Source: Candidatus Limnocylindria bacterium
GTDB taxonomy: Bacteria; Chloroflexota; Limnocylindria; QHBO01
Direction of reading: 5' to 3'
Assembly: GCA_050695815.1 (NCBI GenBank)
Contig: JBOGSW010000136.1
Location: forward strand, 1-48,680
Length of the DNA stretch: 48,680 nucleotides
Shown here: piece after piece, positions 11,500 through 48,345 of the stretch
Layout of the letters: the number at the start of each line of letters is the position of its first letter
How positions within the stretch are numbered: position 1 is the first letter of the stretch
Position numbers and translations under genes: made by a program
Notes under the pieces: model-generated
Databases searched by the model: none
What the model was told of the DNA's origin: nothing
Seen by the model: the letters and a program-made list of their open reading frames with translations, nothing else

Positions 11500-11670
11500 C
11501 GAATCGGTCCTCCGGTCTGAGCCTGCGGTGAGGGCACGAGGCGGGTCCCCACGACGCTGGCGGATGCTAGGAGCGATGCGCGCACGGTCAAGGTACCTGC
11601 GGGGACCGGGGGAGTACTTCGGTACCGTGTGGTGGGGTCAGGGGCTAGCCGGCTGCCGCGCGGCGCGCTC

Positions 11671-11679
11671 TGCTATACT
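11671..11679 (+). promoter_or_regulatory. Putative extended -10 element (TGCTATACT) for rpsB-tsf
   Basis: It shares the 10-mer CTGCTATACT with the element upstream of rplS, and I see no good -35. It would give a leader of about 135 nt with GC hairpins (e.g. CGCGC-AGCA-GCGCG) before GTG 11821. Confidence 0.35.
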
Positions 11680-11820
11680 CATCAGGCTCGCGCAGCAGCG
11701 CGGGCATTCTCATCACACACGCTCGGCGGATCCTGCTGGTCGGTGGTGCCGGCGCGACGACGTCGCGGCCGGTCGACCCCGGAGCCGATGTCGGGCGGAG
11801 GAACAACCGGAGGTTTTCAC

Positions 11821-12777
11821 GTGGCTGCCACCAGCATGAAGCAGCTGCTCGAGGCGGGCGTCCACTTCGGGCATCAGACCCGGCGCTGGAACCCGAAGAT
11901 GCGCGAGTTCATCTTCGCTGAGCGTAATGGGATCCACATCATCGACCTGGCTCAGACCGTGTCGCTGCTCGACCAGGCCCTCGAGTTCGTGCGCGAGACG
12001 GTGCGTCGCGGCGACAGCATCCTGTTCGTCGGCACCAAGAAGCAGGCGCAGGAATCGCTCGCCGAGGCCGCCCAGCGGTCGGGCCAGCACTACGTCAACA
12101 CCCGCTGGCTCGGCGGCATGCTGACGAACTTCATGACGATCAAACGCCGCATCCAGCGCCTCGAGGCTTTGGAGGCGCGACGCGACGCCGGCGAGTTCGA
12201 GCGCCTCACGAAGAAGGAGGCATCGAAGCTCAACGACGAGATCACCAAGCTCGATGCCGCCCTCGGCGGGATCCGCAAGATGCGGCGCCTGCCGGGCGCC
12301 GTCTTCATCGTCGATCCGCATCGAGAGTCGATCGCGGTGGCGGAGGCGCGGCGCCTCGAGATCCCGATCGTGGCGATGACCGATACGAACTGCGACCCGG
12401 ATCTCGTCGACTGGGTGATCCCGGCGAACGACGATGCGATCCGATCGGTGAGGCTCATCTGCAGCCTCGTCGCCGATGCGGCGAGCGTGGCGCAGCAGGA
12501 GCGCCAGGCGAAGCTCGACGAGGAGTTCGAGCAGGCCGAGGCGATGCCACCGGTCGACGAGACGGCCCTCGGCACCGAGGCCGACTACAGCGCCGCTCTC
12601 GCCTCGGGCGAGGCGCTCGTCTTCGAGCCGGAGCCCGAGGACGACGAGGAGGAGGAGCGCAAGGCTCGCGCCCGCCGCGCGGCACACATCGAAGAGGGCG
12701 AGCCGCCACATGACCCCGATCGGGAGCACGAACGCCAGATCGACGAGCACACGAAGGAGCCACGCCCCGAGGCGTAG
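11821..12777 (+). CDS. rpsB: 30S ribosomal protein S2 with an acidic C-terminal extension
   Basis: (V)[26 protein letters not shown] is the canonical S2 N-terminus. GTG 11821 is preceded by GGAGG (11808-11812). The upstream part of the ORF-track frame (11629-11820) is Arg/Ser-rich and non-S2. The tail is rich in E/D. Confidence 0.92.
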
Positions 12778-22117: not shown

Positions 22118-22468
22118 ATGAGCCAGCGAACCGATCGGCTCGACAGCCAGATCCGCCAGGAGCTGATGGAGCTCCTGCAGCGCGATATGCAGGATCCCCG
22201 CATCGGCTTCGCGACGGTGACGCGCGTTGAGACGGCCCGCGACCTCGGATCGGCCCGCGTGTGGGTCAGCGTGCTCGGCACGCCGGAGGAGCGCGAGCAG
22301 GCGATGAAGGCCCTCACCGACGCCGCCCCGTGGTTGCGCCGCCAGCTGGGTGGTCGGCTCACCATCCGGCGCATCCCGCAGCTGGTGATGCGCCACGACG
22401 ACTCGATCGAGGCGGGGGATCGGGTGCTCCGACTCCTCAGTGAGCTGGAGCGCGAGGGCGGCGAGTGA
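22118..22468 (+). CDS. rbfA: Ribosome-binding factor A
   Basis: RLDSQIRQELMELLQRDMQDPRIGFATVTRVETARDLGSARVWVSVLG. The ATG abuts the infB stop (TAGATG). Confidence 0.9.
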   Translation: MSQRTDRLDSQIRQELMELLQRDMQDPRIGFATVTRVETARDLGSARVWVSVLGTPEEREQAMKALTDAAPWLRRQLGGRLTIRRIPQLVMRHDDSIEAGDRVLRLLSELEREGGE

Positions 22469-23448
22469 GCCGCGAGGCGGTGGCGGAGGCGATCCGGGGC
22501 GCGTCTCGGCTCACGGTGATCTGCCACGAGAACCCCGACGCCGATACGCTCGGCGCGGCGCTCGCGCTGCGCATCGCGGCCGAGCGCCTCGGCAAGGTCG
22601 CCGAGGTGGTCGCCGCCGATCCGGTGCCGCCGATGCTGGCTCACCTGCCGGGGGCCGGCGAGGTTCGCACGAGGCCGCAGCTCGCTCCCGACGTCGCCGT
22701 CGTGGTCGACGGGCCGCTCTCGCGCACCGGTGCCGTGGCCAGCGAGTGCGGGGAATGGCTCGGGCGCGCACGGCTCCTGAACATCGACCACCACGTGTCG
22801 AACGACGGCAGCGAGGTGGAGGCGGCCTGGGTCGACGCGACCGCCGCTGCGACGTGCGAGATGGTCGCCGAGCTCATCCCGGATCTCGGCGTCGAGATCG
22901 ACCTCGATATCGCGACCGTGCTCACGGCCGGCATCGTCCAGGACACGCACACCTTCTCGCACCCGAATGCGACACCGCGCACGCTCCGCGTGGCGGCCGG
23001 GCTGCTCGAGGCGGGCGCGCCGCTGTCCGCCATCCACCGCAGAATCTACGCCGACAAGCCGTTCGGCACGCTCGCCCTGTGGGGACGGATGCTGGCCGGG
23101 ATCGCGCAGCGCCGGGACGGCCGGATCGTGTGGTCCGCCATGACGCTGCCGATGCTGGCCGAGACCGGCACCGATGCGGTTGCGTCGGAGGGCTTCATCG
23201 ACCTCCTCGCCTCCACGAAGGCCGCGGACATCACCGTCCTCTTCAAGGAGGTGGATGCCACGCTGACGCGCGTCAGCGTCCGCACCAGCGCCCGGGCCGA
23301 TGCGGTGGCGATCACGTCAGCCTTCGGTGGTGGAGGGCACGCCCGTGCGGCGGGGTGCTCCATCGAGGCGCCCCTGGGCGACGCGACGAAGCGGCTCCTC
23401 GACGAGTGCGAGCGCGAGCTCGACCGCGCCGATGCTCGGGGTCGTTAA
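22465..23448 (+). CDS. nrnA: DHH/DHHA1 phosphoesterase, NrnA-type nanoRNase / pAp phosphatase
   Basis: HENPDADTLGAALAL, NIDHHVSN and GGGGHARAAG (DHHA1) are present. The GTG start overlaps the rbfA stop (GTGA). Confidence 0.85.
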   Translation: MSREAVAEAIRGASRLTVICHENPDADTLGAALALRIAAERLGKVAEVVAADPVPPMLAHLPGAGEVRTRPQLAPDVAVVVDGPLSRTGAVASECGEWLGRARLLNIDHHVSNDGSEVEAAWVDATAAATCEMVAELIPDLGVEIDLDIATVLTAGIVQDTHTFSHPNATPRTLRVAAGLLEAGAPLSAIHRRIYADKPFGTLALWGRMLAGIAQRRDGRIVWSAMTLPMLAETGTDAVASEGFIDLLASTKAADITVLFKEVDATLTRVSVRTSARADAVAITSAFGGGGHARAAGCSIEAPLGDATKRLLDECERELDRADARGR

Positions 23449-25333: not shown

Positions 25334-25603
25334 GTGCCGCTCGCCAAGGACGCGAAGAGCGCAATCGTCGACGAACATGCCACGCACGAGGGCGATACCG
25401 GATCACCCGAGGTGCAGATTGCGCTTCTCACCGAGCGGATCAAGTCACTGACGGACCATCTGCGCAGCTACCCGAAGGACAACCACTCGCGCCGCGGGCT
25501 GCTCAAGCTCGTCGGGCAGCGCCGACGGCTGCTTGCGTACCTCGTCCGCAATGACGTGGACCGGTACCGGGCCGTCATCAGCAGCCTGGGGCTGCGTCGA
25601 TAG
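25334..25603 (+). CDS. rpsO: 30S ribosomal protein S15
   Basis: [53 protein letters not shown]. The 89-aa product from GTG 25334 fits canonical S15. Confidence 0.93.
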
Positions 25604-25754: not shown

Positions 25755-25796
25755 GCCAGCAGCGGCCGGAATGCCGAATCAACACTGGAGGAATCA

Positions 25797-28406
25797 GTGG
25801 CAATTACACACGAGGCCGAGATCGGCGACAAGCCCTTCACGATGGAGGCTGGCAAGCTCGCCGAGCAGGCCGATGGCGCGGTGATCGTTCGCTACGGCGA
25901 CACCGTTGTGCTGGCGACCGCGGTCGCCAGCAAGCAGCCCCGCGAGGGGGCCGACTTCTTCCCGCTCACCGTCGACTACGAGGAGCGGATGTACGCGGCG
26001 GGCAAGATCCCCGGCGGCTTCATCAAGCGCGAGTCACGCCCATCGGAGGCGGCCATCCTGGCGATGCGCCTCACCGACCGCCCGATCCGCCCGCTCTTTC
26101 CGAAGGGCTACTACAACGACGTCCAGGTCGTGCTGACGGTCCTCTCGACCGACCAGGAGAACGACCCGGACATCCTGGCGCTCAACGGCGCCTCGGCGGC
26201 GCTCAGCATCAGCCACATCCCGTTCATGGGGCCGGTCGGCGCCGTACGGGTCGGCCGCATCGACGGGGCCTTCGTCACGAACCCCACGAACAGCCAGCTT
26301 GACGATTCGGAGCTCGACCTGGTCGTGGCCGGCACGCGTGACGCGGTCATGATGGTCGAGGCAGGCGCAAAGATCCTGCCGGAGTCGGTCATGGCCGATG
26401 CCATCGCCTACGGTCACAGCGAGCTGCAGCACTCGATCGACCTCCAGGAGCGGTTGGTCGCCTCGGCCGGCCAACCGAAGAAGGTACCCTTCGTCGCCCC
26501 CGATGCGGGATCGGTCGCCAGGCTCGGCAAGCTCATCGGCGATGGGAACGGCGAGTTCGTCGTCTTCGACCTCGAGACCACTGCCATGCGCCCGGAGAAT
26601 GGCTACGTCGTCGACGTCGCCGCCCTGCGCGTGCGCGACGGGCAGGTCGTCGATCGCTTCGAGTCGCTGGTCAATCCCGGCCGTCCGATCATCGGCCACC
26701 AGGTGCACGGCATCTCGACCGATGACGTGGCCCAGGCACCGACCGCCGCGGACGTGCTGCCGCGCTTCGTGGAGTGGGTGGGCGAGACCCCGGTCGTGGC
26801 CCACAACGTCAGCTTCGACCTCCCGTACGTCATGCGGCACCTGCCCACCGACGTGAAGTGGGAGCCGACGGCCGTCTTCGACACGCTGCAACTGGCGTAT
26901 CAGCTGTTCCCGGATGCCGGCGCCTACAAGCTGGCCGACCTCGTGCGATTCGTCTTCGGCCGCGATCACAACGCCGCGCACCGCGCCATGCCGGACGCCG
27001 AGGCGACCGCGGAGCTGTTCATCGCCTTCACCAGCGGCCTCGCCGAGCGGCTCGACGCCATCCGCGGCGACATCGCCGACGAGGTGCGCCGGGCGCGCGA
27101 GTCGTACGACCGCACCGAGCAGGGCGAGCGGCTCGAGGACATCCGGCGCCGCCACGGCATCGGCAAGGGACTGATGGACGCCCTGACCAAGGCCACCGTG
27201 CGCGAGCTCGTGCTCGGCGAGAACATCCGCATCGACGGTCGCGACACGACGACCATTCGGCCGATCGAGGTCGAGGTCGGCTTCCTGCCGCGCACCCATG
27301 GAACGGGACTCTTCAAGCGCGGCCAGACGCAGGCCCTCTCGATCGCCACGCTCGGCCCGGGCAGCGACGTGCAGCGCCTGGACACGATCTCGCCCGAGAC
27401 CGAGAAGCGCTACATGCACCACTACAACATGCCGCCGTACTCGGTGGGCGAGGCGCGCTTCATGCGCGGCCCCGGTCGCCGCGAGATCGGCCATGGCGCG
27501 CTCGCTGAGCGGGCCCTCGTCCCCGTGCTGCCCGGTGCCGACGAGTTCCCGTACGCGATCCGCGTCGTGAGCGAGGTGGTCAGCTCGAACGGATCGACCT
27601 CGATGGCCTCCACCTGTGGGTCGACGCTGGCCCTCATGGATGCCGGCGTGCCGATCAAGGCACCGGTCGCGGGCGCCGCCATGGGCCTCATCACCGACCC
27701 CGAGTCGGGCCGCTACGCCGTCCTCACCGACATCACCGGCAAGGAGGACGCCTACGGCGACATGGACTTCAAGGTGACCGGCACCGCCGATGGCGTGACC
27801 GCGCTCCAGATGGACATCAAGGTTGCCGGCATCACCCCCGAGATCATGCGTGACGCCCTCGACAAGGCTCGCGACGCGCGCCTCTTCATCCTGGACAAGA
27901 TGACCGCCGTGATCGGGACCAGCCGCGAGGAGCTGAGCCAGTACGCACCGCGCATCACGACCCTGAAGATCCCGGTCGACAAGATCCGTGACGTCATCGG
28001 CGCCGGCGGCAAGGTGATCCGGCAGATCACCGCCGAGACCGGCACCCAGATCAACGTCGAGGACGACGGCACGATCCAGATCGCCGCCACCAGCGGCGAG
28101 GCCGCCCAGAAGGCGATCGGCTGGATCGAGGGCCTGACCAAGGATGTCGAGGTCGGCAAGGAGTACATGGGCAGGGTCACCCGCATCATGAACTTCGGGG
28201 CCTTCGTCGAGATCCTGCCCGGCAAGGAGGGGCTGGTCCACATCAGCCAGCTCGCCGACTACCGTGTGCCGCGCGTCGAGGACGTGGTCAGCATCGGCGA
28301 CGAGCTGATGGTGGTCGTGACCGAGATCGACCGCATGGGCCGCGTCAACCTGAGCCGCCGCGCGGCGATGGAGCGGCACATGGCCAAGGCCGGCACGAAC
28401 AGCTGA
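25797..28406 (+). CDS. pnp: Polynucleotide phosphorylase with an inserted DEDDh exonuclease domain (869 aa)
   Basis: GTG start. PH1 ([26 protein letters not shown]), PH2 ([44 protein letters not shown]), KH ([11 protein letters not shown]) and S1 ([28 protein letters not shown]) are all present in one frame. Confidence 0.93.
26550..27041 (+). other. DnaQ/RNase T-like DEDDh 3'-5' exonuclease domain embedded in pnp (aa ~252-415)
   Basis: Exo [10 protein letters not shown] (D 26568-70, E 26574-76), Exo [15 protein letters not shown] (D 26817-19) and Exo [17 protein letters not shown] (H 26979-81, D 26994-96) occur in the canonical order and spacing. The block is flanked on both sides by PNPase sequence. 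Confidence 0.8.
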
Positions 28407-28425: not shown

Positions 28426-29130
28426 ATGGGCACCGCGGGCGAGTCGACCGGAGGCGCGCAGGCGCTGGCGCAGATCGCGGACGAGGTTCGCGGCTGCACG
28501 CGCTGCACGCTCGCAGCGCGCCGAACGCTCACCGTTCCCGGCGAGGGAAACGTCCTGAGCGACGTCCTCCTCGTGGGGGAGGGGCCCGGCGCGCGCGAGG
28601 ATGCCACCGGACGGCCGTTCGTCGGTCCGGCCGGCCAGCTCCTCGACGAGCTTCTCGGCGCGATCGGCTGGGCGCGCGCCGACGTCTTCATCACGAACGT
28701 GGTGAAGTGCCGTCCTCCAGGAAACCGGGACCCCGAGCCGGCCGAGGTCAGCGCCTGCGGCGCGTATCTCGATCGCCAGGAGGCGGCGCTCGATCCGGCG
28801 GTGGTGGTCACGCTGGGCCGGCATTCGCTGCAACGCTATCTGCCTGGCGCCCGCATCGGGGCTGTCCACGGGCAGATGCGTCGCTCCTTCGCGGGGCTCC
28901 ATGTCTTCCCGATGTACCATCCTGCTGCGGCGCTGCACCAGGCCTCGTTGCGTGACACGCTGTTCCGCGACATCCGTGGCCTGCCATCGGCGTTGCTGGC
29001 CGCTCGCCAGGCGCTCGTCAATGAGCGCGCGGCATCGGCCGAGGCGGAGGAGGCTGCAGCTTCGGCACCGGAACCCGCATCGGTACCGGCGGAGCCCGCC
29101 GACGACGCCGAACAGATGACCCTCTTCTAG
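28426..29130 (+). CDS. Family-4 (Fe-S type) uracil-DNA glycosylase
   Basis: CTRCTL...VPGEGN....LLVGEGPGAREDATGRPFVGPAGQLLDELL, further Cys residues in VVKCRPPGNR...ACGAYL, and HPAAAL near the C-terminus. Confidence 0.85.
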   Translation: MGTAGESTGGAQALAQIADEVRGCTRCTLAARRTLTVPGEGNVLSDVLLVGEGPGAREDATGRPFVGPAGQLLDELLGAIGWARADVFITNVVKCRPPGNRDPEPAEVSACGAYLDRQEAALDPAVVVTLGRHSLQRYLPGARIGAVHGQMRRSFAGLHVFPMYHPAAALHQASLRDTLFRDIRGLPSALLAARQALVNERAASAEAEEAAASAPEPASVPAEPADDAEQMTLF

Positions 29131-29138
29131 GAGCTCTC

Positions 29139-30803
29139 ATGGCCGAATCCCTGCGCATCATCCCGCTCGGTGGGGTGGGCGAGGTCGGAAAGAACATCAC
29201 CGTCATCGAGTACGGCGTCGACATCGTTGTCGTCGACTGCGGGCTCGCATTCCCCGAGCCGGAGATGCTCGGCATCGATCTCGTGATCCCGGACGTCGCA
29301 TACCTCGAGGAGCGCCGCGACCGCGTGCGCGCGATCCTGCTCACGCACGGCCACGAGGACCACACCGGCGCGCTGCCGTATGTCCTGCCCAGGATCCCAG
29401 GCACGCCGATCTACGCCACGCGGCTGACCGAGGGCCTGGTGCAGGGCAAGCTGCGCGAGCACAAGCTGCTCGAGTCGACCCCGCTCCACGTGGTGACGCC
29501 GGGGGAGGAGTTTGCGATCGGCCCGTTCCGGGTCACCGCCTTCCGCGTCAACCACTCGATCCCCGACGGCGTCGGCTACGCGATCCGCTCACCGGTCGGC
29601 ACGGTGGTGCATACCGGAGACTTCAAGTTCGACCAGACGCCGCCGGATGGGCAGCGCGCCGACCTGGGGCTCATCGCCGACATCGGCAACCGCGGCGTGG
29701 AGTTCCTCCTGTCCGATTCGACGCGGGCCGAGAAGGAGGGGTACACGCTGTCCGAGGCGACCGTCGGCGACAGCCTCAACCGACTCGTCGGCGAAGCCCC
29801 CGGACGCGTCATCGTGGCCACCTTCGCCAGCAACATCGGTCGCGTGCAGCAGGTGATCGACGCCGCCTGGGCGCATGGTCGCAAGATGGTCGCGCTCGGT
29901 CGCAGCATGGAGCAGAACACCGCGATCGCCCTCGAGCGCGGCTACCTCGACCCTCGCGACGGCACGTTCGTGAAGAAGGATCAGCTCCAGCGCCTGCCGA
30001 AGGAGGAGCTGGTGGTGATGACGACCGGCTCGCAGGGTGAGCCGATGAGCGGCCTGACGCGGATGAGCAACCGCGACCATCGCAACATCACCATCGAGCC
30101 CGGTGACACCGTGATCGTCTCCGCCTCACCGATCCCGGGCAACGAGGAGGCGGTCGCCAAGACGATCGACAACCTCTTCAAGGAGGGGGCGATGGTCCAC
30201 TACGAGCCGCTGGTGCACTGCCACGTCTCCGGCCACGGCTCGCGCGAGGAGCTCAAGCTCATGCTCGCCCTCGTCCGTCCGCGCCACTTCGTACCGGTCC
30301 ACGGCGAGTACCGCATGCTCGTTCAGCACGGCCTCGTGGCCGAGGGCGCGGGCGTCGACGTCGACAAGATCTTCGTCCTCGAGAACGGCCAGGTCGTCGA
30401 GTTCGACGGGCAGCGCGCGCGAATGGCCGATCCGGTGCAGGCCGGTGCCGTCCTGGTCGACGGGATCGCGGCCATCGACGGGATCGATGGTGTCGTGCTC
30501 CGTGATCGGCGCATGCTGGCGTCCGACGGCGTCGTGCTCGTGGCGCTCACGATCGATGCCAAGACGGGCCAGTCGGTCGGCATGCCGGACCTCGTCAGCC
30601 GTGGGTTCCTGTCCGACCCGGAGGATCCGCTCATGGCCGAGGCACGCGACCACCTCGTCGACGCGCTTCGGCAGCGCCGCGAGGATGAGCACACGGCGGA
30701 GGCCGGCTACGTGAAGACGAAGATCCGCGACACGCTGAGCCGGTTCTTCCATCAGCGCACGAAGCGACGGCCGATGATCCTGCCGATCGTGATGGAGGTC
30801 TAG
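29139..30803 (+). CDS. rnj: Ribonuclease J (beta-CASP metallo-beta-lactamase)
   Basis: LRIIPLGGVGEVGKNITVIEY, LLTHGHEDHTGALPYV, DSTRAE and HCHVSGHGSREEL are present, and 554 aa is typical. Confidence 0.92.
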   Translation: MAESLRIIPLGGVGEVGKNITVIEYGVDIVVVDCGLAFPEPEMLGIDLVIPDVAYLEERRDRVRAILLTHGHEDHTGALPYVLPRIPGTPIYATRLTEGLVQGKLREHKLLESTPLHVVTPGEEFAIGPFRVTAFRVNHSIPDGVGYAIRSPVGTVVHTGDFKFDQTPPDGQRADLGLIADIGNRGVEFLLSDSTRAEKEGYTLSEATVGDSLNRLVGEAPGRVIVATFASNIGRVQQVIDAAWAHGRKMVALGRSMEQNTAIALERGYLDPRDGTFVKKDQLQRLPKEELVVMTTGSQGEPMSGLTRMSNRDHRNITIEPGDTVIVSASPIPGNEEAVAKTIDNLFKEGAMVHYEPLVHCHVSGHGSREELKLMLALVRPRHFVPVHGEYRMLVQHGLVAEGAGVDVDKIFVLENGQVVEFDGQRARMADPVQAGAVLVDGIAAIDGIDGVVLRDRRMLASDGVVLVALTIDAKTGQSVGMPDLVSRGFLSDPEDPLMAEARDHLVDALRQRREDEHTAEAGYVKTKIRDTLSRFFHQRTKRRPMILPIVMEV

Positions 30804-42219: not shown

Positions 42220-45200
42220 ATGCCATCCTTCTACGCCGCGATCCACGAGATCGTCGGCGAGCTCATGTACGCCGAGAACTTCTACATCGCGCTCTACGAC
42301 CCCGAGCGCGAGCGGATCGGCTACCCCTTCTACCGCGACCTCGTCGACCCTGACATCCCGGACCCGAAGGTGTGGGAACCGTTCGGGATCGGCAATGCGC
42401 GTGGGTCGACCGCGTACGTGCTGCGCCATGGCAAGCCGGAGCTCTTCACCTTCAGCCGGATGGAGGAGCTGGCGCGGAAGGGCGAGCTCGAGATCGTCGG
42501 CGCGAAAGCGGCTGAGTGGATGGGTGCGCCACTGGTCTCGGACGGGCAGATCATCGGCGTCGTCGCGGTGCAGAGCTATCGCGACGACCGGCTCTACTCT
42601 CCGAGCGACCTCGACCTCCTCACCTTCGTGGCCCAGCACATCGGGACGGCGCTGGCCCGCGCCCGGGCCATCGAGGAGACGCGCCAGCGCAACGCGGAGC
42701 TCGCGCTGGTCAACGAGGTCGCATCGGCGCTCTCGATGCAGCTCGACTTCGCCGCCATCATCGAGCTCGTCGGCGCGCGAATCAGCGCGATCTTCGAGTC
42801 GGACTCGGTCGGCATCACCCTCCATGACCCGGGCACGAACCTGCTGACCTCCCCGTACATGTTCGATCGTGGCGTCCGTCTCTCGATGGACCCGTACGAG
42901 CTCGGCCCCGGCCTCAACTCGGAGGTCATGCAGACCCGGCGGCCGCTGCGCCTCGCCTCCTCGTCGGAGATGGAGCAGCACAGCGTGATGCATGTCCCGC
43001 GGTTCGAGGGCGACGAGGATGCGTCCGAGTCATGGCTGGGGGTGCCGATCCTGGTCGGCGAGCGCGTCCTCGGCGTGATCAGCATCGAGCGGGAGGAGGC
43101 GCATGCGTTCGACGACGCCGACGAGCGCCTGCTCAGCACGCTCGCGTCGAGCCTCGGCGTGGCGCTCGAGAACGCCCGGCTCTTCGACGAGACGAAGCGG
43201 CTCCTCGTCGAGACCGAGCAGCGCAACGCGGAGTTGGCGGTCGTCAACGAGATCGGAGCCGCGCTGGCCAAGCAGCTCGAGTTCGACGCCATCATCGAGC
43301 TGGTCGGGGAGAGGATCCGAGGCATCTTCCAGACGGACTCGATCTTCATCGGCATCTACGACGCGGCGAGCCAGACCGTTACCTTCCCGTACTCGATCGA
43401 GGAGGACGAGCGGGACGAGATGCCGCCGCTGAAGATCGGCGAGGGGCTCACCTCGCAGATCCTGCTCTCGAAGCAGCCGATCCGCATGGGTACGTTCGAG
43501 GAGTCAATCGGGATGGGCGCCATCACGTCCGGTCTTGACACCCAGGCCTGGCTCGGCGTCCCGATCCTTGCCGGCGACCGGGCCATCGGCGTCATCGCGC
43601 TCGAGAGCCTCGAGGTGAACCGCTTCAGCGAGGCCGACGAGCGCCTGCTCAGCACGCTCGCATCGACCATGGGCGTGGCGCTCGAGAACGCGCGGCTGTT
43701 CGACGAGACGAAGCGGCTGCTGGCCGAGACCGATCGGCGCGCCGCCGAGCTCGCCATCGTCAACAGCGTGCAGCGCGGGCTGTCTGCCGAGCTGGAAATC
43801 CGGGCCATGTACGAGCTGGTGGGGGAGCGCGCCAGCGACGTCTTCGACGCCAACGTCGTCGACATCGCCATCTTCGATCACGCCGAGAACCTCATGAGCT
43901 TTCCGTTCATCCTCGAGCGCGGCGAGCGCCTGCCGAACCAGCCGCGGGAGATCATCGGCTTCCGGCGCCGCGTGATCGAGACCGGCGCCCCGGTGATCGT
44001 GACGCACGACCTGGCGCGGCAGGCGGCCGAGGCCGGGCAGCCGGCACAGCTCGTCGGCGAACCCGCGCGGTCCGCGATCTACGCCCCCCTGGCGCTGGGA
44101 GACGAGATCCTCGGCGTGATCAGCCTCCAGAACCTCGATCGAGAGTACGCCTTCACCGATGCCGACGTCTCCCTGCTGACCACGATCGCCGCGAGCCTCA
44201 GCGTCGCGCTCCATACCGGCCGGCTCATCGACGAGACACGGCAACGCGTGGCGGAGCTCGGCACGATCAACGAGGTCGGCGAGGCGATCACCGCGCAGCT
44301 CGAGGTGAACCCGTTGCTCGCGCTCGTTGGAGACAAGACCCGCGAGGCATTCGACGCGGACATCGCCTACGTCGCACTGCTCGACGAGGAGACCAGGATG
44401 ATCGAGTTCCCGTACTACGTCGAGAGGGGCTCGGACACGATCCAGGCTCCGCTGCCGCTCGGCGAGGGCCTCACCTCCCGCGTCATCCAGCGTCGCGAGG
44501 GCCTGCTGCTCAACCGCGAGGCCGACTGGGTCGCTCTCGGCGTGCGCGGGATCGGGACGAGGGCGAAGTCGTGGCTGGGCGTGCCGATCGTGGCCGGGGA
44601 GCGGGTCATCGGCGCCATGAGCGTCCAGAGCCTCTCCCACGAAGGACGCTTCGACGCCGCCGACGCAAGCCTGCTGAGCACCATCGCCGCCAACGTCGGG
44701 GTCGCGGTGCAGAACGCCCGGCTCTACACGGAGACGCGCCGTCGCGCCGAGGAGATGGCCGCCCTGGCCGAGGTGGGGCGCGAGATGTCCGCCACGCTCG
44801 AACTGTCGGTCGTGCTGGAGATGATTGCCGGCCGCGCGAAGACGCTCCTCGGAGGTGACACGAGCGCGGTCTACCTTCCAGAGCCCGATACCGACGAGCT
44901 GCACGCGATCGTCGCGCTCGGGACGATGGCCGACGCGATCCTCGCCGATGCCATCACCCGCGGCGAGGGGATCATCGGAAGCATCGCCGCCAGCGGCACG
45001 GCGGAGCTCGTCAACAGCACGAACGCCGACGGGCGATCGCTGACGATCCCGGGGACCGAGGAGGACGAGGACGATCGGCTCATGGCCGCGCCGCTGACGA
45101 TTCGCGGCGAGGTCGCCGGCGTCCTCGCCGTCTGGCGCTTCCCAGGCTCCGCGCCGTTCACCGGCGCGGACCTCAGCTTCCTCTCCGGCCTCTCGCAACA

Positions 45201-46875
45201 GGCGGCGATCGCCCTCCAGAATGCCCGGCTCTTCGCCGATGCCGAGGAGTCGCGTATGGCCGCCGAGGAGGCGAACGAGGCGAAGAGCAGCTTCCTGGCC
45301 TCGATGAGCCACGAGATCCGTACCCCGCTCAACGCCATCATCGGCATGGGCGGGCTGCTGCTGGACACGAAGCTTGACGACGAGCAGCACGAGTTCGCCG
45401 CCACCATCCGCACCTCCGGCGATGCGCTGCTCATGATCATCAACGACGTCCTCGACTTCTCGAAGATCGAGGCGGGTCGCGTCGAGCTCGAATCGGTGCC
45501 GTTCGTCCTGCGCGACGCGGTGGAGGCGTCGCTCGACATCCTGGCGCCGGCGGCTGCTGAGAAGGGCCTGGAGCTGGTCTACGCCATGGACGACGACCTG
45601 CCCGTGGCGCTGACCGGCGACACGAGCCGTCTCCGCCAGATGTTGCTCAACCTGCTGTCGAATGCCGTGAAGTTCACCGATCGCGGCGAGGTCGTCGTCA
45701 CCGTCGCGGGCGAGCGGGTGGAAAGGGCACGACCCAACGTTCCGGACGAGTGGCAGCTCAGGATCGACGTGCGCGACACCGGCATCGGCATCCCCGCAGA
45801 GGCCATGGACAAGCTGTTCCAGTCGTTCAGCCAGGTGGACGCGTCGATCGCCCGACGCTACGGCGGCACGGGCCTGGGCCTGGCCATCAGCCGCAGGCTT
45901 GCCGAGCTCATGGGCGGCACGCTCGATGCCGAGAGCAGCGGCGTTGCGGGGGAGGGAAGTGTTTTCCGCCTGGCCGTGCGGCTGCCGGAGGCACCGACCG
46001 ACGCGGTGACCTCCGCGCGGCCGATGCGGATCGACGCGGACCTGACCGGTCGGACCGTCCTCATCGTCGACGACAACGCCACGAACCGGCGCATCCTCGT
46101 CGCGCAGACCGCGAGGTGGGGGATGGTTCCGCGCGAGACCGGGTCGCCGGCCGAGGCGCTCGCCTGGCTGACCGGAGGCGCCCGATTCGACCTCGCGCTC
46201 TTCGACCTCCTGATGCCCGGGCTCGACGGCCTGGAGCTCGCCGACAGCGTGGCCCAGCTGACGGGCAACGGGTCCGGCCCGGCGCTGCCGGTCGTCATCC
46301 TCTCCTCGATCGGCCTTCGCGAGCGTGTTGCGGCGCCGATCGCGGCCTGGCTGGCCAAGCCGGTCAAGCCGTCGGCGCTGCACGACGCGATCGCGACCAT
46401 CCTGCTCGGCACCGACGCGCCAGCGGCAGGTGATGTCGAGCCTGCGCCCGGTGCCGCACCCGGCGAGCGTCATCCTCTCCGCATCCTGCTGGCGGAGGAC
46501 AATCCGGTGAACCGCAAGCTCGCCCTTCGCCTGCTCTCCCAGCTGGCCTACGACGCCGCCGTTGCGGTCGACGGGAAGCAGGCGATCGAGGCGCTGGAGC
46601 GCGCGGAATTCGATCTGGTGTTCATGGATGTTCAGATGCCGGAGCTTGACGGGCTGGAGGCGACCCGACGCATCCGCGCCCGGTGGCCCGACCGCCAGCT
46701 GCGGATCGTGGCCATGACCGCCAACGCCATGACCGGTGACCGCGAGGCGTGCCTGGCTGCCGGGATGGACGACTACATCGCCAAGCCGATCCGCCCCGCG
46801 GAGCTCGCTGCGGCACTCGAGCGAACTCCGGCCCTGACCCACGCGGATGCCCAAGGAGACGCACATGGTGGATGA
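42220..46875 (+). CDS. Soluble hybrid sensor histidine kinase: 6 tandem GAF domains - HisKA - HATPase_c - REC - REC (true start probably upstream of 42220)
   Basis: Six modules of about 172 aa each end in a [L/V][15 protein letters not shown]-type linker. H-box [13 protein letters not shown] (His 45310-12), N box [13 protein letters not shown] boxes DTGIGI and [12 protein letters not shown]1 [10 protein letters not shown] (Asp 46204-06) and REC2 [11 protein letters not shown] (Asp 46627-29). No TM segment is present. Confidence 0.9.
43117..43217 (+). repeat. Intragenic direct repeat, copy A (GAF2/GAF3 linker)
   Basis: GCCGACGAGCGCCTGCTCAGCACGCTCGC...GGCGTGGCGCTCGAGAACGC.CGGCT.TTCGACGAGACGAAGCGGCT recurs 516 nt (172 codons) downstream with few mismatches. 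Confidence 0.85.
43633..43733 (+). repeat. Intragenic direct repeat, copy B (GAF3/GAF4 linker)
   Basis: Partner of 43117-43217, with the same reading frame and the same peptide [30 protein letters not shown]. Confidence 0.85.
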
Positions 46876-47224
46876 AGGGGTGCTCGCAGAGCTGCGGGCA
46901 TCGGTCCAGGGCGACACGGAGTTCGTCCGCGAACTCGTGGATGCCTACGTGGCCGATAGCGCAGGCTGCATCGATGCCATCGAGGCAGCGGCCGACGCCG
47001 GGGACGTTGACGCGATGGTTCGGCCGGCCCACACGCTGAAGTCGAGCAGCGCGACGCTCGGGGCGATGACGCTCTCGGCGACGGCCCGCACGCTGGAGGT
47101 GGCCGCCCGCTCCGGGACGCTCGACGATCCGGAGACCCGCGATGCCGCGTCCCGCGCGCGCGCCGAGTGGGAGGCGGCCACGGCGGCGCTGCGAACCTGG
47201 GTGGACGGAGCGGAGTCGCAATGA
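46865..47224 (+). CDS. Histidine phosphotransfer (Hpt) protein
   Basis: [10 protein letters not shown].......I and [13 protein letters not shown], with phospho-His at 47030-32. The start is ATG 46865 (or 46847), and both options overlap the kinase 3' end. The stop overlaps the next ATG (ATGA). Confidence 0.8.
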
Positions 47225-48345
47225 CCGAGGCCTCCGTCGCTCTGGTCGTCGACGACAGCCGCGTCAACCGGCTCGTCCTCGTTCGCCAGCTCGCCGGGCT
47301 CGGGCTGGAGGCGCTCGAGGCCGAGAACGGGGCGGAGGCCCTGAACCTTCTGCGCACGCATCCGGGCGTGATCGAGCTCGTTCTCCTCGACGTGGTCATG
47401 CCCGAGATGGATGGCTACGAGACACTCGCCGCCATGAAGGCCGACGAGGTGATCCGGCACATCGGGGTCATCATGGTGTCCGGCGTGGAGGAGCTCGATA
47501 GCGTCGTTCGCTGCATCGAGCTCGGCGCCACCGATTACCTGACCAAGCCGATCAACCCCCGCATCCTGGGCGCGCGCATCAACGCGTCCCTGACCGAGAA
47601 GCGGTTGCACGACCTCGAGCACGAGCACTTCGAGCAGCAACGCGCGCTCAACGAGACGATCGAGCGGCAGCGTGCTCAGCTGGCGCGCTTTTTGTCGCCC
47701 CAGGTAGCCAGCCTGATCTCGTCGCCCGAGGGGGAGCAGCTCCTGGCCGGGCATCGGCGCGAGATCACGGTCGCCTTCTGCGACCTGCGCGGCTTCACCT
47801 CATTCGCCGAGCAGGCTGACCCGGAGGAGATGCTCGGCGTCCTGGGCGAATATCACCGCATGATGGGGGAGGCGATCACCGAGCACGCCGGCACGCTGGA
47901 GCATTTCGCCGGTGATGGCGTGATGACGTTCTTCAACGACCCTGTTCCCCAGCCCGACCACGTGGAGCGCGCCGTTCGCATGGCTCTCGCCATGCGGGAG
48001 CGGTTCGCGCCGCTGGCGGCCGGCTGGCGCAAGCGCGGCTACGAGCTCGGCTTCGGGGCGGGCATCGCGACCGGCTACGCGACCCTGGGGCGCATCGGCT
48101 TCGAGGGCCGATACGATTACGGGGCCATCGGCAACGTGGTGATCCTGGCCTCGCGCCTATCCAGCCAGGCGGCAGCCGACCAGATTCTGCTGAGCCAACG
48201 TGCGCACGCCATGGTCGAGGGCATGGTGGATGTCGAATCCATCGGCGAACTGACGCTGAAGGGCATCAGCCGGCCGGTCGCCGCCAGCAACGTCCTGGCG
48301 GTTCGTGACCCGATGCCCGACACGGATGCGGTCGCTGCTGGCTAG
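47221..48345 (+). CDS. Response regulator receiver fused to a class III adenylate/guanylate cyclase domain
   Basis: REC has ALVVDDSRVNR, LLDVVMPEMDG (Asp 47389-91) and YLTKPI. A coiled-coil linker follows. The CHD has ITVAFCDLRGFTSFAE, FAGDGVMTFF and AIGNVVILASRL. Confidence 0.88.
   Translation: MTEASVALVVDDSRVNRLVLVRQLAGLGLEALEAENGAEALNLLRTHPGVIELVLLDVVMPEMDGYETLAAMKADEVIRHIGVIMVSGVEELDSVVRCIELGATDYLTKPINPRILGARINASLTEKRLHDLEHEHFEQQRALNETIERQRAQLARFLSPQVASLISSPEGEQLLAGHRREITVAFCDLRGFTSFAEQADPEEMLGVLGEYHRMMGEAITEHAGTLEHFAGDGVMTFFNDPVPQPDHVERAVRMALAMRERFAPLAAGWRKRGYELGFGAGIATGYATLGRIGFEGRYDYGAIGNVVILASRLSSQAAADQILLSQRAHAMVEGMVDVESIGELTLKGISRPVAASNVLAVRDPMPDTDAVAAG

What the first reader, a model, noticed from the sequence alone, without database searches (positions are those of the whole stretch)
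26550..27041. PNPase with a complete DEDDh (DnaQ/RNase T-like) exonuclease domain inserted between the two RNase PH cores
Seen:
- pnp (25797-28406) is one uninterrupted 869-codon frame. By my recollection typical bacterial PNPases are about 700-740 aa.
- PH1, PH2 ([14 protein letters not shown] from 27225), KH and S1 are all present.
- Residues ~252-415 carry three ordered motifs: [22 protein letters not shown] and [14 protein letters not shown].
- All five DEDDh catalytic positions are intact: D 26568, E 26574, D 26817, H 26979, D 26994.
- Codon bias is continuous across both junctions. Helical PNPase-like sequence flanks the insert on both sides (…[14 protein letters not shown]… and …[20 protein letters not shown]…[11 protein letters not shown]…).

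Established: these motifs define the DnaQ/RNase T/oligoribonuclease superfamily of hydrolytic 3'-5' exonucleases. The PH1-PH2 connector of PNPase is normally an all-alpha domain.

Inference: a single polypeptide, and hence a trimer, would combine phosphorolytic and hydrolytic 3'-5' exonuclease activities. The insert might finish the short oligonucleotide end-products of PNPase, or trim 3' ends that stall phosphorolysis. I am not aware of this architecture having been characterised.
Basis: partly seen in the sequence, partly recalled or inferred. Interest (0 to 1): 0.85.

Follow-up and report, generated by a model that had tools for sequence, protein, structure and literature searches.

The report
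PNPase with built-in DEDDh exonuclease domain
The RNA-degrading enzyme PNPase of one class of soil and freshwater bacteria (Limnocylindria) carries a second, intact, water-using exonuclease domain spliced into its middle; this architecture is conserved and common in sequence databases, but I found no paper that describes it.

Summary
Window 25797-28406 is one 869-codon pnp gene at the usual rpsO-pnp position. A complete DEDDh exonuclease domain (residues 253-415, nt 26553-27041) lies between the two RNase PH cores. The model places it between helix 1 and helix 2 of the alpha-helical linker domain.

It is not an assembly artefact. Intact 854-895 aa copies with the same domain set occur in at least 239 protein clusters (90% identity). 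These form three lineages, and every taxon-named member is Candidatus Limnocylindria or Chloroflexota.

- The five DEDDh residues are kept in 238 of 239 clusters, and the eight PNPase catalytic-motif residues I checked are kept in all 239.
- dN/dS of the insert is 0.17-0.22, the same as the PH cores.

By sequence and predicted fold, the insert is closest to the DinG, PolC and DnaQ exonucleases. It is not closest to RNase T or oligoribonuclease.

The most likely reading is a dual-mode enzyme: a phosphorolytic ring with three hydrolytic 3'-5' exonuclease sites on the face opposite S1/KH. Substrate (RNA oligonucleotides, RNA 3' ends or DNA) is inferred, not shown.

Eight literature searches found no description. 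I rate it a new variant of a known kind, of moderately high interest.

The parts
25334..25603 (+). rpsO (ribosomal protein S15, 89 aa). It marks the canonical rpsO-pnp locus.
   Evidence: Pfam PF00312, E = 1.1e-35. The same rpsO-pnp order is seen in L034, L035, L037 and L038.
25787..25792 (+). Shine-Dalgarno sequence GGAGGA, 4 nt upstream of the GTG start of pnp.
   Evidence: Read directly from the sequence.
25797..28406 (+). pnp coding sequence: 869 codons plus stop, encoding PNPase with an embedded DEDDh domain.
   Evidence: ORF. NCBIfam TIGR03591 scores 973 bits against a cut-off of 525, matched in two stretches. AF2 model has pLDDT 91.6 and pTM 0.85. Foldseek matches solved PNPases with target-normalised TM up to 0.95.
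25830..26420 (+). First RNase PH core (PH1: RNase_PH 12-142, RNase_PH_C 145-208).
   Evidence: Pfam. It aligns to residues 24-249 of PNPase 5yjj.
26505..26540 (+). Helix 1 of the alpha-helical linker domain (residues 237-248). This is the fast-evolving segment on the N-terminal side of the insert.
   Evidence: AF2 secondary structure H237-248. dN/dS over residues 237-252 (this helix plus the four residues before the DEDDh domain) is 0.5-1.8; entropy is 1.15.
26553..27041 (+). Inserted DEDDh (DnaQ-like) 3'-5' exonuclease domain, residues 253-415.
   Evidence: Pfam PF00929 at 255-408, full profile, E = 1e-21. NCBIfam NF005906, DinG and PolC at E = 1e-42 to 1e-34. PDB 2p1j at 4e-21. Domain model has pLDDT 94.2; Foldseek gives DinG and PolC exo at TM 0.86. 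dN/dS is 0.17-0.22.
26568..26576 (+). Exo I motif: D258-x-E260.
   Evidence: D in 238 of 239 and E in 239 of 239 fusion clusters. Invariant in alignment A3 with free-standing DEDDh proteins.
26817..26819 (+). Exo II aspartate D341 (in HNVSFD).
   Evidence: 239 of 239 clusters. Invariant in A3.
26979..26996 (+). Exo III motif: H395-x4-D400. The histidine defines the DEDDh subtype.
   Evidence: 239 of 239 clusters for both residues. Invariant in A3.
27039..27221 (+). Helices 2-4 of the alpha-helical linker domain (residues 415-475).
   Evidence: AF2 helices H415-432, H439-453 and H457-475. Pfam PF03726 matches only residues 457-483, at sub-threshold score. Insert-less PNPases realign from about residue 417.
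27225..27941 (+). Second RNase PH core (PH2), the phosphorolytic active site. Key residues are R561, R562, G599, S600, S602, D651, D657 and K659.
   Evidence: All eight are invariant in 239 of 239 fusion clusters. All but R561 (which is >=90% conserved) are also invariant in alignment A2 with 83 insert-less PNPases. Mapping to E. coli catalytic residues rests on my own knowledge.
27957..28130 (+). KH domain (residues 721-778).
   Evidence: Pfam PF00013, E = 8.9e-12.
28146..28361 (+). S1 domain (residues 784-855).
   Evidence: Pfam PF00575, E = 5.2e-19.

Best explanation
This is the single housekeeping PNPase of the class Candidatus Limnocylindria (Chloroflexota). A DinG/PolC/DnaQ-type DEDDh 3'-5' exonuclease domain was inserted into the loop between helix 1 and helix 2 of the alpha-helical linker domain, and it has been kept ever since.

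**Shown**
- One reading frame at the rpsO-pnp locus.
- Both catalytic centres complete.
- The insert is under the same purifying selection as the PH cores.
- The architecture is conserved across three lineages that differ by about 40% in sequence.
- The insert is absent from the nearest insert-less relative, which sits at a similar locus.
- A confident model shows a normal PNPase protomer carrying a normal DnaQ fold.

**Inferred**
- The protein forms the usual PNPase trimer. RNA enters from the S1/KH face and is phosphorolysed in PH2.
- Three hydrolytic, Mg2+-dependent, phosphate-independent 3'-5' exonuclease sites sit on the opposite face. There the helical domain borders a side pore to the phosphorolytic site.
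- Most likely role: these sites hydrolyse single-stranded RNA 3' ends that the ring cannot handle. Candidates are the short oligonucleotide left at the end of each processive run, and short or PNPase-added 3' tails.
- The result would be one particle that takes RNA down to mononucleotides whether or not phosphate is available.
For: **Architecture.** establish the domain order. AF2 gives pLDDT 91.6 and pTM 0.85, with the order H237-248 | DEDDh 253-412 | H415-475.

**Independent intact copies.**
- L003 has an 869-aa ORF that is 88% identical. L001 and L002 are 86% identical up to their contig ends.
- All 120 listed clusters related to the window protein are 854-895 aa and carry PF00929 plus the PNPase domains.
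- All 120 listed clusters related to the Ca. Limnocylindrus protein P0241 show the same domain set.

**Selection.**
- dN/dS is 0.17-0.22 for DEDDh, 0.19-0.20 for PH1 and 0.16-0.17 for PH2.
- The D-E-D-H-D pentad is kept in 238 of 239 clusters, and the eight PNPase catalytic-motif residues checked are kept in 239 of 239.
- The pentad survives although the domain is only 37% identical between the window protein and P0241.

**Housekeeping locus.** The gene order is nusA-infB-rbfA-DHH-truB-ribF-rpsO-pnp-udg-rnj-ftsK.

**Bracketing of the insertion.** The nearest insert-less PNPase, P0242 (62% identical), lies in a similar rpsO-pnp...udg context.

**RNA activity is plausible.** The closest structural neighbour is the DinG exonuclease domain (TM 0.86).
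- It degrades ssRNA as well as ssDNA in vitro (PMC3270479).
- It is a 3'-5' exoribonuclease on unprocessed rRNA in Listeria (PMC12774634).

[quoted passage not shown] It forms part of a side pore to the active site (PMC2723993).

**PNPase leaves a short oligonucleotide product** (PMC11572968 abstract). A DEDDh oligoribonuclease, REXO2, clears such products alongside PNPase in mitochondria (PMC7261184).
Against: - No activity, substrate or quaternary structure was measured.
- All the nearest sequence and fold relatives (PolC exo, epsilon, ExoX, Cas2-DnaQ, DinG) are primarily known as DNA exonucleases.
- The insert is not in the RNase T or Orn branch.
- An NrnA-like DHH/DHHA1 gene, a candidate nanoRNase, lies in the same gene string (22465-23448). 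A dedicated finisher may therefore already exist.
- The orientation of the DEDDh active site relative to the channel and side pore could not be read, because the tools return no coordinates.
- Over deep time the insert diverges much faster than the PH cores (37% against 62-73% identity).
Confidence: 0.5

Rival explanations
1. DNA-end processing. The embedded DEDDh domain is a 3'-5' exodeoxyribonuclease that works with the known ssDNA-directed activities of PNPase. It would trim or clean DNA 3' ends during repair or recombination, and would not act in RNA decay.
For: - The best sequence and fold matches are DNA exonucleases: PolC proofreading domain, DinG-exo, Pol III epsilon, ExoX and Cas2-DnaQ.
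- A family-4 uracil-DNA glycosylase gene starts 20 nt after the pnp stop codon.
- From my own knowledge, not checked here: PNPase of Bacillus subtilis and mycobacteria has ssDNA phosphorylase/polymerase activities and roles in repair.
Against: - The host protein keeps the full RNA-handling apparatus (KH, S1, phosphorolytic site) at the ribosome-biogenesis/RNA locus.
- A UDG gene also lies downstream of the insert-less pnp in L037, with other genes between. Linkage to udg therefore predates the insertion.
- DEDDh enzymes of this branch also degrade RNA.
Confidence: 0.2
2. Tail editing. The DEDDh domain acts on 3' tails that the same enzyme synthesises from NDPs. It would limit or remove heteropolymeric tails hydrolytically, as a built-in antagonist of PNPase's polymerase mode, and would not finish degradation products.
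For: - DnaQ-type domains are typically partners of polymerases (PolC, epsilon).
- The domain sits by the pore proposed to admit NDPs and phosphate to the active site (PMC2723993).
- From my own knowledge: PNPase is the main tailing enzyme in several bacteria that lack poly(A) polymerase.
Against: - There is no evidence on tailing in this lineage.
- PNPase can already remove its own tails by phosphorolysis.
- This reading cannot be told apart from the main explanation by sequence alone.
Confidence: 0.1
3. Non-catalytic module. The domain no longer cuts. It serves as a 3'-end or nucleotide-binding, gating or protein-docking module on the helical-domain face.
For: - The helical domain it interrupts is thought to modulate access to the active site.
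- The insert's surface evolves fast between lineages (37% identity).
Against: - All five metal- and water-activating residues are kept in 238 of 239 clusters across three lineages. This is hard to explain without catalysis.
- The full-length profile match and a confident canonical fold argue the same way.
Confidence: 0.07
4. Artefact. The insert is an assembly chimera, or a mis-called fusion of two genes.
For: Many database homologues of the insert are 150-465 aa fragments, some on very long contigs.
Against: - Those fragments come from long-read contigs whose neighbouring genes (truB, ribF, rnj) are broken in the same way. They are indel errors.
- Short-read assemblies give uninterrupted 858-895 aa genes in hundreds of independent samples.
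- GC, GC3 and frame are continuous.
Confidence: 0.01

Closest known systems
Canonical bacterial polynucleotide phosphorylase (NCBIfam TIGR03591; solved structures 5yjj, 4nbq, 3cdi, 4aim, 1e3h)
   Same: - PH1, helical linker, PH2, KH and S1 in the same order.
- Located at the rpsO-pnp locus.
- 42-62% identity outside the insert.
- Phosphorolytic residues intact.
- Fold match with target-normalised TM up to 0.95.
   Different: - About 160 extra residues form a complete DEDDh exonuclease domain between helix 1 and helix 2 of the linker domain.
- No solved PNPase has such an insert. Apart from the Limnocylindria-type full-length representative P0241 and four fragments, none of the best 150 representatives has one either.
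DEDDh exonuclease domains of DinG (Firmicutes), PolC and DNA polymerase III epsilon (DnaQ)
   Same: - Exo I, II and III motifs are present.
- Fold match: TM 0.86 to S. aureus DinG and PolC, 0.83 to epsilon.
- Like the PolC exonuclease (own knowledge), it exists as a domain inserted inside another domain.
- The DinG exonuclease degrades ssRNA and pre-rRNA.
   Different: - Only 25-29% identical.
- The host is a phosphorolytic RNase ring, not a helicase or a polymerase.
- It scores far below every equivalog cut-off: for example, DinG NF005981 scores 113 bits against a cut-off of 789, and PolC NF001688 scores 113 against 873.
Oligoribonuclease (Orn) / REXO2 working with PNPase in trans
   Same: - It pairs PNPase with a DEDDh hydrolytic 3'-5' exonuclease.
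- In human mitochondria REXO2 removes the short RNAs left by the PNPase-SUV3 machinery (PMC7261184).
   Different: - Here the two activities are on one polypeptide.
- The insert is not an Orn or RNase T family member by sequence or by best fold match.
RNA degradosome of Caulobacter crescentus (RNase E scaffold with PNPase and RNase D)
   Same: A phosphorolytic PNPase is physically coupled to a DEDD-superfamily hydrolytic 3'-5' exoribonuclease (PMC4245959).
   Different: - The coupling is non-covalent, through RNase E.
- RNase D is a DEDDy enzyme with HRDC domains.
- The genome here encodes RNase J next to pnp.
Eukaryotic nuclear exosome (PH-like ring plus Rrp6 and Rrp44); own knowledge, not tested here
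   Same: An RNase PH-type ring with an S1/KH cap is combined with hydrolytic exonucleases, one of them (Rrp6) from the DEDD superfamily.
   Different: - The eukaryotic ring is catalytically dead and the nucleases are separate subunits.
- Here the ring keeps phosphorolysis, and the DEDDh domain is covalently built into each protomer.

Membership tests
Polynucleotide phosphorylase (TIGR03591 / PRK11824) | Score above the curated equivalog cut-off | tested here: met
   TIGR03591 scores 973 bits (cut-off 525) and NF008805 scores 971.6 bits (cut-off 471), each matched in two stretches around the insert.
Polynucleotide phosphorylase (TIGR03591 / PRK11824) | Two RNase PH cores followed by KH and S1 domains | tested here: met
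   Pfam finds RNase_PH x2, RNase_PH_C x2, KH_1 and S1. Foldseek matches solved PNPases with target-normalised TM 0.74-0.95.
Polynucleotide phosphorylase (TIGR03591 / PRK11824) | Intact phosphorolytic site in PH2 (RR, GS(S/T)S, D...D.K motifs) | tested here: met
   R562, G599, S600, S602, D651, D657 and K659 are invariant with 83 insert-less PNPases. Together with R561 they are invariant in 239 of 239 fusion clusters. The functional assignment of these residues rests on my own knowledge of E. coli PNPase.
Polynucleotide phosphorylase (TIGR03591 / PRK11824) | Contiguous all-alpha linker domain (Pfam PF03726) between PH1 and PH2 | tested here: not met
   Only profile positions 55-81 of 81 match, at 19.6 bits against a cut-off of 24.6. 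The model shows four helices split 1 + 3 by the DEDDh domain. This is the respect in which the protein is a variant, not a standard member.
Polynucleotide phosphorylase (TIGR03591 / PRK11824) | Homotrimeric ring with a central channel; phosphorolytic activity | not testable with these tools
   Only a monomer model without coordinates was available.
DEDDh / DnaQ-like 3'-5' exonuclease superfamily (Pfam PF00929) | Full-length profile match above the gathering score | tested here: met
   78.6 bits against a cut-off of 24, covering profile positions 1-164 of 164.
DEDDh / DnaQ-like 3'-5' exonuclease superfamily (Pfam PF00929) | Exo I D-x-E, Exo II D and Exo III H-x4-D present and conserved | tested here: met
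   D258, E260, D341, H395 and D400 are present. They are invariant against 35 free-standing DEDDh proteins. They are kept in 238 of 239 fusion clusters.
DEDDh / DnaQ-like 3'-5' exonuclease superfamily (Pfam PF00929) | RNase H-like alpha/beta fold of DnaQ | tested here: met
   The domain model has pLDDT 94.2 and pTM 0.90. Foldseek gives TM 0.86 to DinG-exo and PolC-exo and 0.83 to epsilon.
DEDDh / DnaQ-like 3'-5' exonuclease superfamily (Pfam PF00929) | Metal-dependent 3'-5' exonuclease activity | not testable with these tools
   This needs biochemistry.
   No RNase T or Orn chain is among the 11 PDB sequences with E <= 1e-3. Neither is among the best 25 of 29 NCBIfam families. RNase T ranks 22nd or lower with TM 0.74-0.77.
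DNA polymerase III epsilon subunit (JGI's automatic name for many homologues) | Score above the epsilon-family cut-offs | tested here: not met
   TIGR01406 scores 73-76 bits against a cut-off of 222.7. TIGR00573 scores 67-70 bits against 71.5. The name reflects the domain, not the protein.

The most novel reading that the evidence does not exclude
Limnocylindria would have a single-polypeptide, bacterial counterpart of the eukaryotic exosome.
- RNA threaded from the S1/KH face through an active phosphorolytic PH ring is handed, as its residual oligonucleotide or when phosphorolysis stalls, to a DEDDh hydrolytic site on the exit face.
- One homotrimer thus degrades RNA completely to mononucleotides, independently of phosphate supply.
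- In this class the enzyme would replace separate hydrolytic exoribonucleases such as RNase R/II or Orn.
Probability: 0.2. Interest if true: 0.8.

Novelty: new variant of a known kind. Interest (0 to 1): 0.62.

Why it matters
- **Two chemistries in one enzyme.** PNPase is one of the most studied RNA-decay enzymes, and all characterised forms use only phosphorolysis. A class-wide natural variant with a conserved hydrolytic DEDDh site would be the first PNPase to combine both 3'-5' chemistries in one protomer.
- **A tractable test system.** It offers a way to ask how the end-products and stalled substrates of a PH-ring nuclease are passed to a second nuclease. Elsewhere that question has to be studied in multi-subunit systems: exosome with Rrp6/Rrp44, PNPase with REXO2, or degradosome with RNase D.
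- **Tolerance of the helical domain.** It shows that the poorly understood helical domain accepts a 160-residue catalytic insertion at a defined loop. This is useful for engineering and for understanding that domain's role.
- **Ecological weight.** Named database members are soil (Limnocylindria/Limnocylindrales) and freshwater (Ca. Limnocylindrus) metagenome-assembled genomes, and some clusters hold more than 300 sequences, so the enzyme is likely to be quantitatively important in nature.
- **Annotation.** These proteins are currently split between two misleading automatic names.

Tried and rejected
1. **Assembly chimera: rejected.** Intact copies occur in many independent short-read assemblies, and composition is continuous.
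2. **Naturally split genes: rejected.** The first homology search returned only 150-465 aa fragments, some on 300-870 kb contigs. In those contigs truB, ribF and rnj are broken too, and the fragments contain out-of-frame stretches. These are long-read indel errors.
3. **RNase T or Orn membership: rejected**.
4. **Mixed alignment A1: abandoned.** MAFFT scattered the short free-standing DEDDh proteins across the PNPase columns. A2 (fusions plus insert-less PNPases) was used for the full-length model, and A3 for the domain alone.
5. **Other oversize PNPases as independent catalytic insertions: none found**.
   - P0253 has an expanded K/E-rich helical domain plus a second KH.
   - P0258 and P0259 have three S1 domains.
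   - P0286 has three KH domains and low-complexity sequence.
6. **Regulatory RNA in the 193-nt rpsO-pnp spacer: nothing found.** The fold z-score is -0.89. There are no Rfam hits, tRNAs, or promoter- or terminator-like sites.
7. **Literature: no description of the fusion.** Eight searches combined PNPase with DEDDh, DnaQ, RNase_T, exonuclease domain, Chloroflex* and Limnocylindria. The library omits most subscription-journal papers.
8. **Tests that could not be run.**
   - Whether these genomes lack RNase R/II, Orn or a second pnp.
   - Where the DEDDh active site points. The tools return no coordinates or PAE.
Full report
**Observation**

Window 25797-28406 (+) is a single GTG-initiated ORF of 869 codons with no internal stop. 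A GGAGGA Shine-Dalgarno sequence lies 4 nt upstream.

Pfam finds the following:
- RNase_PH twice and RNase_PH_C twice.
- KH_1 at residues 721-778 and S1 at 784-855.
- Between the two PH cores, a full-length RNase_T/PF00929 match at residues 255-408 (profile 1-164 of 164, E = 1e-21, 78.6 bits against a cut-off of 24).

NCBIfam calls the protein a PNPase well above the curated cut-off (TIGR03591, 973 bits against 525), but in two stretches that flank the insert.

Against solved PNPases, residues 9-236 and 459-856 align to residues 24-249 and 312-707 of 5yjj. About 222 residues therefore stand where a normal enzyme has about 62. GC (0.67-0.72) and GC3 (0.91, 0.93, 0.93) are continuous across both junctions.

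**Not an artefact**

The species-representative genome collection holds three close loci:
- L003 has an uninterrupted 869-aa ORF that is 88% identical over its full length.
- L001 and L002 are 86% identical up to their contig ends, with no frameshift.

A full-length protein search returned 120 clusters at 90% identity. All are 854-895 aa, 86-100% identical, and carry PF00929 together with the PNPase domains.

The first search, with the insert alone, had returned only 150-465 aa fragments, several on 300-870 kb contigs. Those contigs have Flye-style names, and their truB, ribF and rnj genes are broken as well. The fragments contain out-of-frame stretches, so they reflect long-read indel errors and not split genes.

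**Distribution**

I scored the protein against 1.84 billion 50%-identity representatives.
- The only full-length representative with a single end-to-end match is P0241 (864 aa, 59% identical). Four fragments also carry the insert.
- Every other PNPase among the best 150 matches in two stretches and so lacks the insert.
- P0241 carries RNase_T at residues 254-408. Its cluster is named Candidatus Limnocylindrus sp. / Chloroflexota.

A search with P0241 gave another 120 clusters, all with the same domain set. One group is 85-100% identical to P0241. A large third group is 70-73% identical and is named Candidatus Limnocylindrales. Candidatus Limnocylindria is a class of Chloroflexota.

The nearest insert-less PNPase is P0242 (741 aa, 62% identical). 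It lies in a similar rpsO-pnp...udg context, which brackets the insertion event.

In the window, the gene sits in the classical housekeeping string nusA-infB-rbfA-DHH/DHHA1-truB-ribF-rpsO-pnp. A family-4 UDG, RNase J and ftsK follow. This is therefore the orthologous pnp, not an accessory paralogue.

**Conservation**

| Comparison | DEDDh | PH1 | PH2 | KH-S1 | Residues 237-252 |
|---|---|---|---|---|---|
| dN/dS, window vs L001-L003 | 0.17-0.22 | 0.19-0.20 | 0.16-0.17 | 0.04-0.07 | 0.5-1.8 |
| Identity, window protein vs P0241 | 37% | 62% | 73% | 66% | 19% |

- Across 239 cluster representatives from the three lineages, D258 is kept in 238, and E260, D341, H395 and D400 in all 239. The PNPase residues R561, R562, G599, S600, S602, D651, D657 and K659 are also kept in all 239.
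- The pentad survives although the domain is only 37% identical between the window protein and P0241.

**Structure**

AlphaFold2 was run with an alignment of 20 fusions and 83 insert-less PNPases. It gives pLDDT 91.6 and pTM 0.85.
- The order of elements is PH1, helix 237-248, the DEDDh alpha/beta domain 253-412, helices 415-432, 439-453 and 457-475, then PH2, KH and S1.
- The insert therefore lies in the loop between helix 1 and helix 2 of the helical linker domain.
- The core matches solved PNPases with target-normalised TM up to 0.95. No solved PNPase has the extra domain.

The domain modelled alone has pLDDT 94.2. Its best structural matches are:
- S. aureus DinG exonuclease and PolC exonuclease, TM 0.86.
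- A Cas-associated DnaQ domain and Pol III epsilon, TM 0.83.
- RNase T appears only from rank 22, with TM 0.74-0.77.

Sequence searches agree: NF005906, DinG and PolC score 1e-42 to 1e-34, and 2p1j scores 4e-21. No RNase T or Orn chain reaches E <= 1e-3.

**Mechanism**

*What is shown.* There are two complete, conserved catalytic centres in one protomer of a housekeeping PNPase.

*What is inferred.*
- In E. coli PNPase the helical domain lies on the face opposite S1/KH. It contributes to a side pore that gives access to the phosphorolytic site (PMC2723993).
- A trimer of this protein would therefore carry three hydrolytic sites on that face.
- PNPase ends each run with a short oligonucleotide product (PMC11572968). 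In mitochondria a DEDDh enzyme, REXO2, clears such products (PMC7261184).
- The closest characterised relative of the insert, the DinG exonuclease, degrades ssRNA and acts on unprocessed rRNA in vivo (PMC3270479, PMC12774634).

I therefore favour a dual-mode RNA exonuclease whose DEDDh sites hydrolyse oligonucleotide remnants or short 3' tails independently of phosphate (confidence about 0.5).

*Rivals.*
- DNA 3'-end processing (0.2). It is favoured by the DNA-exonuclease affinities of the domain. It is not favoured by the adjacent UDG gene, because a UDG also lies downstream of the insert-less pnp.
- Editing of PNPase-made tails (0.1).
- A non-catalytic module (0.07). The invariant pentad argues against this.

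An NrnA-like gene 2.3 kb upstream cautions against assuming that the insert is the cell's only nanoRNase.

**Comparison and novelty**

The protein is a PNPase by every test except the contiguous helical domain. Its insert is a DEDDh superfamily member, but not a member of the RNase T, Orn, epsilon, DinG or PolC equivalogs.

Functionally it resembles pairings that are otherwise made in trans:
- PNPase with REXO2.
- PNPase with RNase D on the Caulobacter degradosome (PMC4245959).
- The PH-like exosome ring with Rrp6/Rrp44 (own knowledge).

Eight full-text searches found no paper describing the fusion. The library omits most subscription-journal papers. Public databases hold hundreds of copies under the automatic names 'polyribonucleotide nucleotidyltransferase' or 'DNA polymerase III epsilon subunit family exonuclease'.

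**Verdict**

The feature is real, conserved across the class and, as far as I could find, uncharacterised. I rate it a new variant of a known kind, with interest 0.62.

The decisive steps are:
- Biochemistry with exo-dead and phosphorolysis-dead mutants.
- A trimer structure.
- A census of other 3'-5' exoribonucleases in Limnocylindria genomes.

Noticed in passing
L034 1-9014 and L035 1-9215 (ENA ERZ25039530 and ERZ25039586 contigs): These long contigs carry pnp, truB, ribF and rnj broken into several ORFs by frameshifts, typical of uncorrected long-read assemblies. They populate protein databases with 150-465 aa 'PNPase/exonuclease' fragments that could be mistaken for split genes.
   Followed up: yes
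L001, L002, L003 (record titles): Three pnp loci are 86-88% identical to the window's pnp and share gene order where flanking sequence is present. They are filed under Steroidobacteraceae, Candidatus Limnocylindria and Candidatus Binatia MAGs. The short contigs (6.8-22.6 kb) are probably mis-binned, because every other named homologue is Limnocylindria or Chloroflexota.
   Followed up: partly
window 22465-23448 (+): A DHH/DHHA1 protein aligns end to end with the NrnA oligoribonuclease/pAp-phosphatase model, but well below its cut-off (89 bits against 350). It is a candidate nanoRNase in the same gene string as pnp, and is relevant to whether the DEDDh insert is needed as a finisher.
   Followed up: partly
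window 28426-29130 (+) and 29139-30803 (+): A family-4 uracil-DNA glycosylase gene starts 20 nt after the pnp stop, and RNase J follows immediately. The pnp-udg-rnj order recurs in L034 and L035. A UDG gene and a gene of RNase J size also lie downstream of the insert-less pnp in L037, with extra genes between.
   Followed up: partly
P0253, P0258, P0259, P0286 (proteins): Other oversize PNPases vary by different means. P0253 has about 125 extra K/E-rich helical residues in the linker domain plus a second KH. P0258 and P0259 have three S1 domains. P0286 has three KH domains and a low-complexity linker. The helical domain and the RNA-binding tail are hot spots for expansion, but none of these carries a second catalytic domain.
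   Followed up: partly
P0024 (389 aa, on a 1,454-bp contig): A protein joins a PF12225-type N-terminal part to the linker and first half of the PNPase DEDDh insert. It is most likely a chimeric short contig.
   Followed up: no
P0236 (884 aa): This is the only one of 239 fusion clusters with a change in the catalytic pentad (D258Y). It may be a sequencing error or a rare inactive allele.
   Followed up: no
window 42220-46875 (+): A very large (1,551 aa) hybrid histidine kinase with six GAF domains, HisKA/HATPase_c and two receiver domains. A receiver-adenylate/guanylate cyclase gene follows at 47167-48345.
   Followed up: no
window 11629-12777 (+): Ribosomal protein S2 is called as 382 aa, with the S2 domain only at residues 73-285. 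This implies unusually long N- and C-terminal extensions, or a mis-set start.
   Followed up: no
window 25797 vs 25842: The protein database holds two versions of the window's gene product: 869 aa (P0121) and 854 aa (P0122, starting at M16). The Shine-Dalgarno sequence and the alignment to other PNPases from residue 4 favour the 869-aa start.
   Followed up: yes
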